Source: a virus (Duplodnaviria; Caudoviricetes). From it: a stretch of 64,000 nt of DNA. The position numbers and the translations under genes were made by a program. The notes below the pieces were generated by a model that was not told where the DNA came from, searched no databases, and worked only from the letters and a program-made list of their open reading frames with translations. Within the stretch, counting starts at the first letter, position 1. Each line of letters opens with the position of its first letter. Where the stretch lies: positions 128,001 to 192,000 of the IMG/VR virus record IMGVR_UViG_3300010355_000898; one strand, 5' to 3'. Of the stretch, positions 25,101-29,902 are shown piece by piece.

Positions 25101-25133
25101 ACATTATCCAATAGAAGATTAGAATGGAAACAT

Positions 25134-25207
25134 CGGAGTGTACCTCAATTTGGTAGAGGGCCTGCTTTGGGAGCAGAACGTTGTAGGTTCAAATCCTATC
25201 ACTCCGA
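25134..25207 (+). tRNA. tRNA-Pro(TGG)
   Basis: cggagtg/cactccg; tt TGG ga. Confidence 0.93.
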
Positions 25208-25216
25208 CAAATTAAT

Positions 25217-25292: not shown

Positions 25293-25448
25293 GCCGGTCA
25301 TTTGGGTTCGAGTCCCAATGCAATTTAGTCAGGCCAGTTGAAAGTTTCATGATATAGTTGGACACTCATCATGAAATGAGTAACTGAGAGTGGTCTACCT
25401 CAATAGTCCAACATTGAGTTTGTATCATCTAATTGGCAGGATACCGGC
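25293..25448 (+). ncRNA. circularly permuted tRNA-like RNA 1 with structured insert
   Basis: T-arm precedes D-arm; ends pair gccggt/accggc. Confidence 0.7.
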
Positions 25449-25457
25449 AGTTATTTT

Positions 25458-25536
25458 GGGTCTAATGATGGTTCTGTATGCAATTGAACCCACAAATGGA
25501 AATTGTATACGTTGGGTTCAATTCCCAATAGATCCA
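25458..25536 (+). ncRNA. mini tmRNA-TLD-like RNA
   Basis: acceptor G3:U70 and A73; no D-stem; 10-bp helix; canonical T-arm. Confidence 0.6.
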
Positions 25537-25737: not shown

Positions 25738-25837
25738 ATGTGCATGATATCGCGGAGATATCATATTCAGAGTGTTAAAGATCTGAATACCGAATATCAA
25801 ACCTGATCAGTTTATACGGTGCCACTTTAACAGCTAT

Positions 25838-26584: not shown

Positions 26585-26656
26585 CGTTACTGCACAAGGT
26601 GTGACCAGAATTTCATAAGTTCTTGGGTGAGGGTTCGATTCCCTCAGTAACGACCA
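26585..26656 (+). tRNA. tRNA-CAT (Met or Ile2), reduced D-arm
   Basis: cgttact/agtaacg; tt CAT aa; CCA. Confidence 0.75.
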
Positions 26657-26964
26657 ACACAATCTGTTCAAGTGACTGAAGTCAAGCCCCTTACTCGGGG
26701 GTGAAGTACCAATGCCAGAAACTGATTGGGTCCAAGGATAGTGAAACAGAACGCAATGTAGTCTCGTTGGACGATCAGGCAGTTTCTTAATCGTCAGCCA
26801 GATGTAATGGTCAAGATAACAATGACTCAGAGTTGCAACCATTTGTGGTGAAAATCCATCATATCAGTAACAGTCAGCGAGGCTAGCTGATTGGATATGT
26901 GACAGAAATGCAGTTTCATGAAAGTAGGTGATAGGGTTGAGATCCTATCCGGGACAGAATGTGT
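26657..26964 (+). ncRNA. ~310-nt structured ncRNA, family unassigned
   Basis: 5'/3' ends pair; many hairpins; 8-bp loop-loop complementarity. Confidence 0.7.
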
Positions 26965-27442: not shown

Positions 27443-27514
27443 GCGATCGAGGCCGACTGGTGAGGCGATTGCTTGCCAAGCAATCTTATGTGGGTTCAAT
27501 TCCCATCGATCGCT
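27443..27514 (+). tRNA. tRNA-Gly(GCC)
   Basis: tt GCC aa; U73. Confidence 0.9.
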
Positions 27515-27518
27515 CTAA

Positions 27519-27705
27519 GCTGGAGACATTGGTTCGAATCCAATCAAGATAAAGAGTATCAAATACTGTGAAGTTACCATCACTTGAATGTACATAGCGC
27601 TTAAAGTAATTTTAGAAGAAAATGTTCTAGACAAATATTCTAAAATGATGACATTCTAAATGGTTGAGAAATTTATTTTGTAGCTCAATTGGCAAGAGCA
27701 ACAGC
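27519..27705 (+). ncRNA. circularly permuted tRNA-like RNA 2 with structured insert
   Basis: T-arm attgg-ttcgaat-ccaat precedes D-arm tagctc-aattggcaa-gagc; acceptor caagata/tattttg. Confidence 0.75.
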
Positions 27706-27713
27706 AGATTTTT

Positions 27714-27807
27714 GGAAGACAAATCAGTCAGGGACTGAACCTGTTTGCTAAACAGTGGGCTACCCATGAAGAATGGGAGTGGGTTTCGAGTACTCTGTCT
27801 TCCGCCA
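27714..27807 (+). tRNA. tRNA-Ser(GCT)
   Basis: tt GCT aa; long V-arm; GCCA. Confidence 0.87.
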
Positions 27808-27808
27808 T

Positions 27809-27896
27809 AGAGAGTAAATTAACGAAGCGTTAAGCCTGTCTCGAAAACAGTGCGATGGTTGATGAAATCATTGGGGATCAGGACCTCTGCTCTCTG
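27809..27896 (+). tRNA. tRNA-Ser(CGA)
   Basis: ct CGA aa; V-arm; atypical T-loop. Confidence 0.78.
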
Positions 27897-27901
27897 CAAA
27901 T

Positions 27902-27990
27902 GGAAGGTAAACCGGTTAGGATACCGGGCATGTTTGGAAAACATTGAGAAGGTTAAAAACTTTGTGTTTCGAGTACACTGCTTTCCGCCA
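27902..27990 (+). tRNA. tRNA-Ser(GGA)
   Basis: tt GGA aa; V-arm; GCCA. Confidence 0.87.
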
Positions 27991-28172: not shown

Positions 28173-28784
28173 ATGTCTATTGATACAAAACGTTGGGGTA
28201 AAATTGCCGGGATTCTCAAAGAGAATATGTGGGATGCAACAACTGATGCATTGCAACGTGATTGCAGGTGTGAAAGTTGTGGTAAAATCATAACACAGGA
28301 TGATATTGATGAGTATGAGGCAGAAGGTGGAGAAGGTTGTCCTGCTGTTTGCACAGATTGTGCTGATGAAGAGGCAAGATTGCCATCATCGGGTGCAAAA
28401 CATATGTGGGAAAGTTTTTCTGTCAGCATTATGCAGGAAGCACCATACATTTATAAACCATTCAAGAGCACTGCTCCTGCTCCAATGTGTCAAGCTTGTG
28501 GAAATGAATTGACATATAGGGATAGAGTTGAGTATGAGAATGAGGGTGGAGAAGGTTGGCCAGAACTCTGCAGTGATTGCACAGATTACAAAAATCCTAA
28601 ATGGGCTCAAACAAAAAAGTCAATTGAAGAGGTTGACGAACCGGTTGTTGGAGCAGATCCCAATTGCAAAAATTGTGCAGGAACTGGGTGGGAATATGAA
28701 ACCGGTCAGGATGGTGAACGTGAAAAGGTCAATTGTGACTGTATTCACAAACGTAAATCAGATAAATTGGCAATGAAAAAATAA
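28173..28784 (+). CDS. multi-zinc-ribbon protein
   Basis: two CxxC..EYExEGGEG.P..CxxC repeats plus a DnaJ-like CKNCAGTG; ATATTTA-N5-ATG. Confidence 0.8.
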   Translation: MSIDTKRWGKIAGILKENMWDATTDALQRDCRCESCGKIITQDDIDEYEAEGGEGCPAVCTDCADEEARLPSSGAKHMWESFSVSIMQEAPYIYKPFKSTAPAPMCQACGNELTYRDRVEYENEGGEGWPELCSDCTDYKNPKWAQTKKSIEEVDEPVVGADPNCKNCAGTGWEYETGQDGEREKVNCDCIHKRKSDKLAMKK

Positions 28785-28996: not shown

Positions 28997-29328
28997 GGGG
29001 CGAACAGGTTTCGACGGGTTTGCTCATTCACAGTAAGCATGCAGTGTGAACAACTCTTTGTTCAGAATATTTGCAAACACAAATACACAAGATTTCGCAC
29101 TTGCTGCGTAAATCGCTGTCTGTGCACCATGAGATCTGATGTACAGATGGTTCAATTTTGATCTCAAACTGTTGTCTGATGATTTGGGTCAACAGTGTTC
29201 AGAAATCTGAGATGATAATCGTCGCATAAAAAGTTATCAACCTGCGCACAGGTTATTGCGCTGAAGCATGTGATAGAAAACTGTGAATGTAAAATTCGGA
29301 CATGGGTTCAATTCCCATACGCTCCACA
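28997..29328 (+). ncRNA. ssrA: tmRNA; tag ANTNTQDFALAA at 29073-29111
   Basis: GGGGCGAACAGGTTTCGAC 5' end; G3:U70; T-arm; ALAA-stop tag. Confidence 0.95.
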
Positions 29329-29383
29329 ACATTGCTATTCAATTGTCAACACAATTCAATCAGTAAATTCTGAAAGAAAAATA

Positions 29384-29902
29384 ATGTCAACAAAAGTGCT
29401 CCTCCTAACATCATGGTATTTTCCTCACAAGATTATCACTTGGGAAGCTGCAATCAATCTCATCTTCAATGATAAGGTTGATATCATAGCTTCATATGAT
29501 GAAGATCTCAGATCACCATCAATGGTGATGAAAATGCCTGCAGTTCTCAGATTGAGGAAACAGTTCAAACCTTCAAAGAAGGGTGCAAAATTTTCACGTA
29601 TCAATGTCTTCACAAGGGATGATTGGACATGTCAATATTGTGGAAAACGATTCACAATGAGAGAATTGACGTATGATCATGTCATTCCAAGGAAACATGG
29701 AGGCAGAACTGAATGGGACAACATTGTCACAGCGTGCAAAAATTGTAACGCAAAAAAAGCAAGCCTCCTGCCAGATGAGGCAGGTATGTGGCCTGTGCAT
29801 CAACCCATCAGACCCAAGAGTATGCCTTTCATTCAGCCAAGAATTCATGCTGAGGACATTCCCCCAGAATGGGAAGGTTACATTGTTGCAACACCAGAAT
29901 AG
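29384..29902 (+). CDS. HNH endonuclease (McrA-like)
   Basis: RDDWTCQYCG, TYDHVIP, WDNIVTACKNCN. Confidence 0.92.
   Translation: MSTKVLLLTSWYFPHKIITWEAAINLIFNDKVDIIASYDEDLRSPSMVMKMPAVLRLRKQFKPSKKGAKFSRINVFTRDDWTCQYCGKRFTMRELTYDHVIPRKHGGRTEWDNIVTACKNCNAKKASLLPDEAGMWPVHQPIRPKSMPFIQPRIHAEDIPPEWEGYIVATPE

What the first reader, a model, noticed from the sequence alone, without database searches (positions are those of the whole stretch)
27519..27705. Permuted tRNA-like RNA 2: same architecture, different cargo
Seen: gctgg-agac-attgg ttcgaat ccaat-caagata, ~120-nt insert, tattttg-tagctc aattggcaa gagc-a-acagc. The acceptor has 7 pairs and extends (aa/tt). The insert folds (agtat/atact, gtga/tcac, gaatgt/acattc, attttagaa/ttctaaaat; possible accat/atggt pseudoknot). 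Like RNA 1 it starts right after a full tRNA with AA-GC(C/T)GG and ends GC-AG. Two sequence-distinct copies with matching junctions argue for a system rather than debris. Inference: tRNA shells already open at the anticodon that carry interchangeable RNA domains.
Basis: partly seen in the sequence, partly recalled or inferred. Interest (0 to 1): 0.9.

Follow-up and report, generated by a model that had tools for sequence, protein, structure and literature searches.

The report
Back-to-front tRNA mimic in phage
A giant wastewater phage carries, inside its tRNA gene cluster, a complete tRNA-shaped RNA gene written back half first, with no anticodon loop and a 121-base insert sealing the acceptor end; it is a real and probably selected relative of the tRNA-like Y RNAs, but what it does is unknown.

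Summary
At 27519-27705 a tRNA 3' half comes before its matching 5' half. The 3' half is the anticodon-stem strand, a 4-nt variable loop, a canonical T arm and the acceptor strand. The 5' half is the acceptor strand, U8, a canonical D arm and the anticodon-stem strand. A 121-nt insert lies between them.

The element sits flush between tRNA-Gly (4-nt spacer) and a tRNA-like gene (8-nt spacer). A strict scan for this layout finds two cases in the 269.5-kb genome, this one and RNA 1, and none in 100 shuffled genomes. Independent assemblies from river and groundwater samples carry the element.

A distant relative (about 52% identity in a baseplate protein) has the same kind of element, with a 117-nt insert, at RNA 1's position after tRNA-Asp. 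Its stems are rebuilt by at least 8 two-sided changes. No orthologue of RNA 2 itself was found.

Many other phage tRNA arrays hold flush permuted mimics with acceptor loops of only 4-24 nt.

The closest known relative is the tRNA-like domain of YrlA. This element has no Ro-binding module, no Ro60 gene was found, and it gets no Rfam match.

The "open tRNA shell" reading is supported. The "interchangeable cargo" reading is not: the inserts are unrelated in sequence, and this one folds no better than shuffled sequence.

This scan has reported the general class before, on other DNA.

The parts
27443..27514 (+). Upstream neighbour tRNA-Gly(GCC). Its 3' processing would set the 5' end of the element.
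   Evidence: ARAGORN; Rfam tRNA 56.2 bits
27515..27518 (+). 4-nt spacer CTAA. The AA next to the stem matches positions 37-38 of an anticodon loop.
   Evidence: Sequence. AA precedes 11 of 29 elements of the class.
27519..27523 (+). Anticodon-stem 3' strand (GCTGG)
   Evidence: Pairs 4 of 5 with 27701-27705
27524..27527 (+). 4-nt variable loop AGAC. C27527 is T in the river strain, which gives an A15-U48 Levitt pair.
27528..27544 (+). T arm: ATTGG / TTCGAAT / CCAAT, 5 pairs and a canonical T loop
   Evidence: A truncated Rfam tRNA match, model positions 31-71, scores 15.6 bits.
27545..27552 (+). Acceptor 3' strand CAAGATA plus A at the discriminator position. No CCA follows.
27553..27673 (+). 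121-nt AT-rich insert (GC 0.28) that closes the acceptor stem. Its first A and its last two T's extend the stem by 2 pairs.
   Evidence: Fold z -0.49. No repeat in the genome and no similarity to the other inserts. Strain variation is one 1-nt deletion, at 27623.
27674..27680 (+). Acceptor 5' strand TATTTTG. RNase P is predicted to cut between 27673 and 27674.
   Evidence: 7 of 7 pairs with 27545-27551. The cleavage is inferred from M. smegmatis YrlA (PMC4201824).
27681..27700 (+). U8 A9, the D arm GCTC / AATTGGCAA / GAGC, and A26
   Evidence: The D loop is 8 nt in two other strains (deletion at 27694).
27701..27705 (+). Anticodon-stem 5' strand (ACAGC)
27706..27713 (+). 8-nt spacer AGATTTTT before the next tRNA-like gene. 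G27707 is C in two other strains.
27714..27807 (+). Downstream neighbour: a long-armed tRNA-like gene with encoded CCA, called tRNA-Ser(GCT) by ARAGORN only. RNase P cutting at its 5' end would set the 3' end of the element.
   Evidence: ARAGORN. No Rfam tRNA match at E<=1. 8 strain differences in 94 nt.
25293..25448 (+). RNA 1: the second permuted tRNA-like element of this phage, placed after tRNA-Asp(GTC) and carrying a 92-nt insert
   Evidence: A positional homologue lies in a relative at L210:10746-10926.

Best explanation
RNA 2 is a genuine, selected gene for a non-decoding tRNA-body mimic. It has the same back-to-front layout as the tRNA-like domain of the bacterial Y RNA YrlA (T arm, closed acceptor stem, D arm). 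It lacks the Ro60-binding handle.

Proposed pathway:
1. It is transcribed as part of the phage tRNA operon.
2. The enzymes that mature its neighbours free it. 3' processing of tRNA-Gly leaves (C)UAA before the stem. RNase P cutting at the next tRNA-like gene leaves AGAUUUUU after it.
3. The two halves fold into an L-shaped tRNA body whose two RNA ends lie where the anticodon loop would be.
4. The acceptor has 7 pairs stacked on a 5-pair T stem, so RNase P most likely also cuts at 27673/27674. The 121-nt insert then becomes a 3' trailer that is trimmed or released. What remains is a two-piece tRNA body with no anticodon.
5. This body cannot decode. It most likely acts as a competitor or docking site for factors that recognise the tRNA elbow and acceptor, such as host tRNA-directed nucleases, processing enzymes or repair enzymes. 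The phage's own RtcB and Rnl2-type ligases may handle it.

Shown: the architecture, that it is not chance, that it persists in other strains, that the architecture is conserved for the sister element RNA 1, and that the class is widespread.

Inferred: transcription and processing, the RNase P cut, and the decoy or docking role.
For: Architecture:
- The canonical permuted cloverleaf has all the tertiary-contact nucleotides.
- Two such elements occur in the genome against 0 in 100 shuffled genomes.
- When the halves are re-joined in silico in normal order, ARAGORN calls them a tRNA.
- The element is flush between two tRNA genes, on the same strand.

Expression hint:
- A contig from an RNA library bridges tRNA-Ser and tRNA-Gly into the first 19 nt of the element (record 6).

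Persistence:
- River and groundwater strains keep the element, with only structure-compatible changes: C48 to U opposite A15, a D loop of 8 instead of 9 nt, and 1 nt lost in the insert.
- In those same strains the next 115 nt carry 10 substitutions.

Conservation of the architecture:
- A relative at about 52% baseplate identity has a flush permuted element with a 117-nt insert at RNA 1's position after tRNA-Asp.
- All four of its stems are intact despite sequence turnover.

The wider class:
- At least 24 short-loop permuted mimics occur in other phage tRNA arrays, several of them flush on both sides.
- RNAalifold independently recovers the permuted cloverleaf from them.
- One of them matches the core of Rfam YrlA, model positions 23-86, at 30.1 bits.

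Precedent:
- M. smegmatis YrlA has a 7-pair acceptor stem-loop. RNase P cuts it in vitro and in vivo, and CCA is then added (PMC4201824).

Ligases:
- The phage encodes RtcB, an Rnl2-type ligase and an MnmA-like tRNA thiolase within 7 kb of one another.
Against: - No orthologue of RNA 2 itself was found, so selection on it is argued by analogy with RNA 1 and from near-identical strains. There, 1 substitution in 187 nt against about 3.5 expected is not significant.
- The energy of the whole element is no better than shuffles (z -0.30).
- No RNA ends, modifications or partner protein are known.
- Contigs from the RNA libraries do not cover the insert and cannot show ends.
- The model does not explain why two elements in this phage, and one in a relative, keep inserts of 92-121 nt when 4-24 nt suffice elsewhere.
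- Three array-bearing relatives lack such elements.
Confidence: 0.55

Rival explanations
1. Cargo bracket. The functional product is the 121-nt insert. The two tRNA halves fold around it only so that RNase P cuts at its 3' end and RNase Z/BN cuts after A27552 at its 5' end. The small RNA is thereby excised precisely. This is essentially the first reader's view.
For: - The 7-pair acceptor with no CCA after the discriminator is the kind of substrate both enzymes accept (inference from established tRNA processing; for RNase P on YrlA).
- Long inserts are kept in three elements of this phage clade: 92, 121 and 117 nt.
- Other long spacers of this array hold expressed structured RNAs (record 13).
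Against: - The inserts share no similarity, even between the positional homologues RNA 1 and G008.
- The insert of RNA 2 folds no better than shuffles, has no Rfam match and is not repeated anywhere.
- The class at large has only 4-24-nt loops, so the shell is conserved without any cargo.
Confidence: 0.15
2. Neutral relic. A tandem tRNA duplication lost the outer half of each copy, leaving 3' half, spacer and 5' half. The element is transcribed and processed by accident and has no function.
For: - In several short-loop members the acceptor loop still reads N-CCA plus a few bases, as expected from head-to-tail tRNA genes.
- Relative G001 has two intact tRNA-Asp genes in tandem where RNA 1 lies.
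- The presence of such elements among relatives is patchy.
- The insert looks like ordinary AT-rich spacer.
Against: - No parent tRNA remains in the array, yet every stem and every tertiary-contact base is intact.
- There are two elements with the same break point in one phage and a third in a relative, with compensated stems.
- The downstream neighbour varies about 10 times more between strains.
- The same architecture recurs in many unrelated phage arrays.
Confidence: 0.12
3. Classical Y RNA. The element is the tRNA-like partner of a Ro60/TROVE-type protein. That protein would be encoded in the missing quarter of the genome, be supplied by the host, or be too divergent to recognise.
For: - The module order is the same as in YrlA (PMC4201824).
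- A short-loop relative of the class hits Rfam YrlA below threshold.
- RtcB is encoded by the phage, and in Salmonella rtcB lies in the same operon as rsr and yrlA (PMC4201824; my own knowledge for the operon).
- The contig is estimated to be only 74% complete.
Against: - No TROVE match in six frames of 269.5 kb.
- There is no GNCGAAN0-1G motif and no room for a Ro-binding helix. Only 4 nt and 8 nt separate the element from its neighbours.
- There is no Rfam YrlA match even at E<=10.
Confidence: 0.08
4. True permuted tRNA gene. The two ends are joined by the phage RtcB or Rnl2 ligase to close an anticodon loop. RNase P and 3' trimming then open the acceptor, giving a working tRNA, as happens for the permuted tRNA genes of the red alga Cyanidioschyzon merolae.
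For: - The order of the halves and the flush position between tRNAs fit this reading.
- Both kinds of RNA ligase are encoded.
- Halves re-joined in silico are recognised as a tRNA.
Against: - The leftover spacers give a 12-nt loop (AGAUUUUU plus CUAA) with no U33 in any 7-nt register. The apparent anticodon changes with each arbitrary trimming.
- One loop base is polymorphic.
- RNA 1 and the G008 element likewise give no consistent loop.
- RNase P and RNase Z leave 5'-phosphate and 3'-OH ends, which RtcB does not join (established enzymology).
Confidence: 0.04

Closest known systems
YrlA, the tRNA-like bacterial and phage Y RNA (Rfam RF02553; Chen et al. 2014, PMC4201824)
   Same: - The module order is the same: variable region, T arm, acceptor-like stem closed at its tip, D arm. 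The RNA ends lie on the anticodon side.
- The tRNA tertiary-contact bases are conserved.
- A 7-pair acceptor stem, as in M. smegmatis YrlA, which RNase P cleaves.
- A short-loop member of the same phage class hits the core of the YrlA model at 30.1 bits.
   Different: - No Ro-binding GNCGAA motif or helix.
- No Ro60/TROVE gene on the contig.
- It is flush between tRNA genes rather than beside rsr.
- The acceptor carries a 121-nt insert instead of a short loop.
- No Rfam match at E<=10.
Circularly permuted tRNA genes of Cyanidioschyzon merolae, some green algae and Thermofilum pendens (recalled from my own knowledge; cited in PMC4238349 and PMC3400036, which the search listed but I did not read)
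   Same: The 3' half is encoded upstream of the 5' half of the same tRNA, and an intervening sequence joins the acceptor ends.
   Different: - Those genes break within a loop and rebuild a complete decoding tRNA through a circular intermediate made by the splicing endonuclease and a ligase.
- Here no 7-nt anticodon loop with U33 can be rebuilt.
- The setting is a bacteriophage.
Two-piece (circularly permuted) tmRNA of alpha-proteobacteria and cyanobacteria (Rfam RF04321)
   Same: The T arm and the 3' acceptor strand are encoded before the 5' acceptor strand. The segment between them is cut out, leaving a two-piece, base-paired tRNA-like domain.
   Different: - No tag reading frame and no pseudoknots.
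- A full D arm and anticodon stem are present.
- The phage has a separate standard tmRNA at 28997-29327.
- No RF04321 match in the element.
Flush permuted tRNA mimics with short loops in other phage tRNA arrays. I found no published name for them; examples are L099:7065-7132, L258:5377-5448, L293:5612-5682 and L301:4675-4744.
   Same: - The same core.
- The same position, butted against neighbouring tRNAs.
- The same tendency for AA before the 5' end.
   Different: - Their acceptor is closed by 4-24 nt (43-63 nt in a few).
- RNA 2, RNA 1 and the G008 element carry 92-121 nt.

Membership tests
YrlA / bacterial Y RNA (RF02553) | A tRNA-like domain in the order T arm, closed acceptor-like stem, D arm, with conserved tRNA tertiary bases | tested here: met
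   The order is as described in PMC4201824.
YrlA / bacterial Y RNA (RF02553) | A Ro60-binding module: the 5' GNCGAAN0-1G motif or helix formed by the RNA ends | tested here: not met
   Only CTAA (4 nt) and AGATTTTT (8 nt) lie outside the anticodon stem before the neighbouring tRNAs. The motif is absent.
YrlA / bacterial Y RNA (RF02553) | Encoded next to a Ro60/TROVE gene | tested here: not met
   No PF05731 match in six frames of the 269.5-kb contig, while the control genomes rang. The contig is estimated to be 74% complete, so absence from the whole phage is not proven.
YrlA / bacterial Y RNA (RF02553) | Reaches Rfam's gathering score (69 bits) | tested here: not met
   No RF02553 match at E<=10 on 27500-27725. 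The long insert may hide it: a short-loop class member scores 30.1 bits on the model core only.
Circularly permuted tRNA gene (C. merolae type) | The 3' half lies upstream of the matching 5' half | tested here: met
Circularly permuted tRNA gene (C. merolae type) | Joining the transcript ends rebuilds a complete tRNA with a 7-nt anticodon loop (U33, purine 37) | tested here: not met
   The spacers give 12 nt with no U33 in any 7-nt register. The anticodon is arbitrary in silico.
Circularly permuted tRNA gene (C. merolae type) | A bulge-helix-bulge motif at the ends and a splicing endonuclease | not tested
   No such enzyme is known in bacteria (my own knowledge). I did not search for one.
Two-piece tmRNA (RF04321) | A tag reading frame with a resume codon, pseudoknots, and an Rfam match | tested here: not met
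   No RF04321 or RF00023 match within 27500-27725. ARAGORN calls no tmRNA there.
Canonical tRNA (RF00005) | A contiguous cloverleaf with an anticodon loop | tested here: not met
   Only a truncated match to model positions 31-71, at 15.6 bits. ARAGORN makes no call there.
Flush permuted tRNA mimics of phage tRNA arrays (model R1 built here) | A complete permuted core lying between two full tRNA genes with spacers of a few bases | tested here: met
   Spacers of 4 nt and 8 nt. The same layout occurs in L099, L258, L293, L301 and L210.
Flush permuted tRNA mimics of phage tRNA arrays (model R1 built here) | A match to the covariance model built from 24 short-loop members | tested here: inconclusive
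   - RNA 1 matches end to end (25293-25448, 22.2 bits).
- RNA 2 matches as two pieces whose outer ends are exactly 27519 and 27705, at 16.8 bits each.
- The model scores ordinary tRNA-tRNA junctions higher, so it is not specific.

The most novel reading that the evidence does not exclude
A self-bracketing 'tRNA punctuation' device. One tRNA-shaped fold, made from two halves that flank an RNA segment, directs RNase P and RNase Z to excise that segment. It leaves a pre-split, anticodon-less tRNA body whose ends (5'-phosphate and 3'-OH, held together by the anticodon stem) are sealed or otherwise used by the phage's own RNA ligases. The product would be a circular or two-piece tRNA decoy that resists anticodon nucleases.
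Probability: 0.12. Interest if true: 0.8.

Novelty: new variant of a known kind. Interest (0 to 1): 0.55.

Why it matters
tRNA-shaped RNAs that cannot decode are known mainly as partners of Ro60 (YrlA). It is cut to size simply by being butted against real tRNAs.

This points to a Ro60-independent use of tRNA mimicry by phages. A plausible setting is the conflict over tRNA cleavage and repair, since this phage also carries RtcB, an Rnl2-type ligase and a tRNA thiolase.

The long inserts in this clade give a natural test of whether RNase P and RNase Z can use a split tRNA fold to excise an enclosed RNA.

These elements are invisible to tRNA finders and to Rfam. They also confuse annotation of phage tRNA arrays, because a covariance model of them hits ordinary tRNA-tRNA junctions as well.

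Tried and rejected
Searches for relatives that found nothing:
- Three neighbouring proteins used as single queries gave no close relatives in IMG/VR.
- An exact 24-mer of the element found nothing.
- The adjacent metallophosphatase has only one close homologue, on a 2-kb contig. All other hits are at most 37% identical.
- The cultured-phage collection has only generic tRNA matches.

RNA reads:
- Contigs from the RNA libraries do not cover 27564-27674.
- No joint linking 27705 back to 27519 was listed.
- Coverage is far too thin to draw anything from either point.

RtcB association:
- RtcB was not found in five other records that carry flush mimics.
- Those records are only 18-47% complete, so nothing follows.

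Covariance model R1:
- It also scores ordinary tRNA-tRNA junctions, up to 35 bits, so it cannot be used to count members.

Inserts:
- No similarity among the three long inserts. An apparent shared 'TGAA..N6..TGAT' motif was post hoc and not significant.
- The inserts are not repeats or mobile elements. A 14-nt antisense match elsewhere in the genome is at chance level, E 0.09.

Origin and neighbours:
- RNA 2 is not derived from the tRNA-Gly(UCC) that follows tRNA-Gly(GCC) in relative G001, nor from any tRNA of the relatives' arrays.
- The zinc-ribbon-like ORF inside the array (28173-28784) has no homologue near the relatives' arrays.

Ideas rejected on the sequence alone:
- A permuted group I intron arrangement: there is no room for intron halves.
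- An integrase attachment-site remnant: that would leave only an orphan 3' half.

Other:
- The 23-codon ORF at 27588-27659 in the insert has no ribosome-binding site. I treat it as chance.
- No promoter-like or terminator-like site lies in the insert.

Full report
**Setting.** The window is bases 128001-192000 of a 269.5-kb IMG/VR virus contig, estimated 74% complete. The phage is a myovirus-like jumbo phage (baseplate wedge protein). It was found in activated sludge, wastewater, river and groundwater samples from several studies. Between 23229 and 29327, all on the + strand, lie 36 tRNA genes called by ARAGORN and a standard tmRNA, plus several tRNA-like genes that ARAGORN or Rfam miss.

**The observation.**
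- In tRNA numbering, the first part holds positions 39-43, a 4-nt variable loop, a canonical T arm (G53-C61, T54-T55-C56-G57-A58), acceptor positions 66-72 and an A at position 73.
- 121 nt follow.
- The last part holds acceptor positions 1-7, U8 A9, a D arm with A14, G18 G19 and A21, position 26, and positions 27-31.
- The acceptor strands form 7 pairs in exact register, plus two extra A-U pairs. The anticodon-stem strands form 4 of 5 pairs.
- RNAfold recovers this permuted cloverleaf as the minimum-energy structure, although the total energy is not better than shuffles (z -0.30).
- A scan that requires the tRNA invariants in permuted order finds two elements in the genome, this one and RNA 1 at 25293-25448. 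Both lie on the tRNA strand inside the array. It finds none in 100 shuffled genomes.
- When the halves are re-joined in normal order in silico, ARAGORN calls them a tRNA.
- The element fills the gap between tRNA-Gly(GCC), which ends at 27514, and a tRNA-like gene that starts at 27714. Neither half can therefore belong to a complete tRNA.
- It is not an assembly artefact. Contigs from a river run and a groundwater run span it, and an independent 269-kb ENA assembly is identical.

**Strain variation.**
- Within the 187 nt, the river strain differs by C27527T and by one base fewer in the D loop. C27527T turns A15-C48 into the standard A15-U48 Levitt pair. The shorter D loop, 8 nt, is the length seen in RNA 1.
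- The groundwater strain has the same D-loop deletion and one base fewer in the insert.
- G27707C, just outside the stem, shows that the 'GC-AG' junction is not fixed.
- The next 115 nt carry 10 substitutions and an insertion.
- With about 2% background divergence these numbers are too small to prove selection. All changes are compatible with the structure.

**Is it debris?**
- No tRNA in the array resembles either half closely, and none in the relatives' arrays does either.
- The key evidence comes from relatives found through the baseplate wedge protein. The clade is large, with hundreds of contigs at 47-58% identity.
- Among 33 of the larger records, one (G008, 88.8 kb) has two T loops 38 nt apart.
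- In G008, directly after tRNA-Asp(GTC), which is the position of RNA 1 in this phage, lies a flush permuted element: GGAGA / CTGGG-TTCAATC-CCCAG / TAGACAA, a 117-nt insert, then GTGTTTA-TG-GTGT-AATGGAA-GCAC-A-TCTCC.
- Compared with RNA 1, at least 8 of its 21 pairs have changed on both sides and still pair. The inserts show no similarity.
- Gene order around it is shared with the relatives: Ala, Asp, [element]..., Trp, Gln.
- Relative G001 has two intact tRNA-Asp genes there and no element. G005 has a 101-nt rod-like RNA ending in a D-arm-like segment.
- So the permuted architecture, including a long insert, is maintained across deep divergence for RNA 1, but it is not universal in the clade.
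- I found no orthologue of RNA 2 itself.

**A wider class.**
- Searching IMG/VR and JGI metagenomes for two T loops 33-45 nt apart recovered many elements. That spacing is the signature of a tRNA 3' half placed directly after a full tRNA, and the search did not require any pairing. I then filtered the hits for a permuted core that does not overlap any tRNA call.
- At least 24 distinct elements have acceptor loops of 4-24 nt.
- Several are flush on both sides: L099 (two elements), L258, L293 and L301.
- A few have 43-63-nt inserts: L219, L266, L269 and L363.
- RNAalifold on the 24 recovers the permuted cloverleaf without being told it. My filter required pairing, so the covariation counts from that alignment are not independent evidence.
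- AA directly before the 5' end is enriched (11 of 29). The 3' side has no motif.
- In some loops the sequence N-CCA survives, which suggests an origin from head-to-tail tRNA genes.

**Comparison with known families.**
- The order T arm, closed acceptor stem, D arm is that of the tRNA-like domain of YrlA (PMC4201824).
- In M. smegmatis, YrlA's 7-pair acceptor stem-loop is cut by RNase P, and CCA is added afterwards.
- Rfam's YrlA model hits one short-loop flush element at 30.1 bits, over model positions 23-86 only. It hits neither RNA 2 nor the G008 element.
- RNA 2 has no Ro-binding motif and no space for one. No TROVE gene is detectable on the contig.
- It is not a C. merolae-type permuted tRNA gene. 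The spacers would give a 12-nt loop without U33, and the apparent anticodon changes with arbitrary trimming.
- It is not a two-piece tmRNA.

**Mechanism.**
- Directly shown: the architecture, its position and its persistence.
- Inferred from established tRNA processing and from the YrlA precedent: the element is released by maturation of its neighbours; it folds into an L shape; RNase P cuts at 27673/27674; the insert is lost or released as a trailer.
- The end product would be a two-piece tRNA body with no anticodon loop.
- Its role is inferred only. I favour a competitor or docking site for factors that read the tRNA elbow and acceptor.
- The phage invests in tRNA repair and modification. 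It encodes an Rnl2-type ligase, an MnmA-like thiolase and RtcB within 7 kb of one another. Jumbo phages commonly carry such ligases to counter tRNA-cleaving defences (PMC7824862).

**The cargo idea.**
- The insert of RNA 2 is AT-rich (GC 0.28, against 0.37 for the genome) and folds no better than shuffles (z -0.49).
- It has no family match, no repeat and no similarity to the other inserts.
- Whole RNA 1 and the whole G008 element fold more stably than shuffled versions of themselves (z -3.2 and -2.8). Part of that stability comes from alternative pairings with the core.
- Why this clade keeps about 100-nt inserts remains unexplained.

**Verdict.** This is a real, probably functional permuted tRNA mimic. 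It is a new variant of the YrlA-like kind: no Ro handle, embedded in a tRNA array, and carrying a long insert. Earlier reports of this scan described the same general class on other DNA, and I did not treat those notes as evidence. What is specific here is the flush, handle-less form with 92-121-nt acceptor inserts and its conservation at a syntenic position in a distant relative.

Noticed in passing
window 26599-26955: A 357-nt contig from an activated-sludge metatranscriptome (depth 16, no differences) covers the roughly 310-nt structured spacer RNA between tRNA-Met and tRNA-Leu. This is the deepest of the long, near-identical RNA-library contigs laid on the array, and Rfam has no family for it.
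   Followed up: partly
window 27893-27983: A tRNA-like gene with encoded CCA, a Ser(GGA)-like long-arm type missed by ARAGORN and Rfam, is precisely absent (91-nt skip) in contigs of three other runs: two DNA and one RNA library. It is therefore a strain-level presence/absence variant.
   Followed up: partly
window 25125-25214, 25738-25831 and 26096/26097: In the river strain, two array segments are replaced by unrelated sequence of similar length. One of them covers tRNA-Pro 25134-25208. In addition, 489 nt are inserted between the two tandem tRNA-Lys genes. The array is being remodelled in cassettes.
   Followed up: no
genome 77588-84759 (L123:1589-8760), outside the window: A cluster of RNA-repair and tRNA-modification genes: an Rnl2-type RNA ligase (286 aa), an MnmA-like tRNA 2-thiouridylase (346 aa) and RtcB (461 aa).
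   Followed up: partly
L210:10746-10926 (IMGVR_UViG_3300014208_000036): The positional homologue of RNA 1: a flush permuted tRNA mimic with a 117-nt insert between two tRNA-Asp(GTC) genes. In its minimum-energy fold the T-stem strand pairs with the end of the insert instead of forming the T arm.
   Followed up: partly
L208:1093-1193 (-): In relative G005, the 101-nt gap after tRNA-Asp folds into a very stable rod (z -3.8) that ends in a D-arm-like TAGCTCAATCGGCAGAAC segment flush with tRNA-Trp. It may be a derived form of the RNA 1 family.
   Followed up: partly
window 25458-25536 and 27714-27807: Both permuted elements are followed, after a T-rich 8-9-nt spacer (AGTTATTTT and AGATTTTT), by non-canonical tRNA-like genes that Rfam's tRNA model does not match at E<=1. 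The one after RNA 1 has a G3-U70 acceptor.
   Followed up: no
window 29270-29902: An HNH endonuclease gene (Pfam HNH and HNH_5, according to the precomputed annotation of the ENA contig) sits directly after the tmRNA at the end of the array.
   Followed up: no
L091:5852-6477 (-): A ROOL RNA (Rfam, 323 bits) lies inside another phage's tRNA array, the one that also holds a short-loop permuted tRNA mimic.
   Followed up: no
L214, L230, L242, L262, L292, L296; also L236, L258, L259, L279, L280, L312: Two recurrent, conserved families of short-loop permuted mimics in IMG/VR. One lies between tRNA-Gln(CTG) and tRNA-Trp and has a 5-nt loop. The other lies 3-4 nt after tRNA-Phe and has a 6-nt loop; in some contigs it abuts tRNA-Asn with no spacer.
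   Followed up: partly
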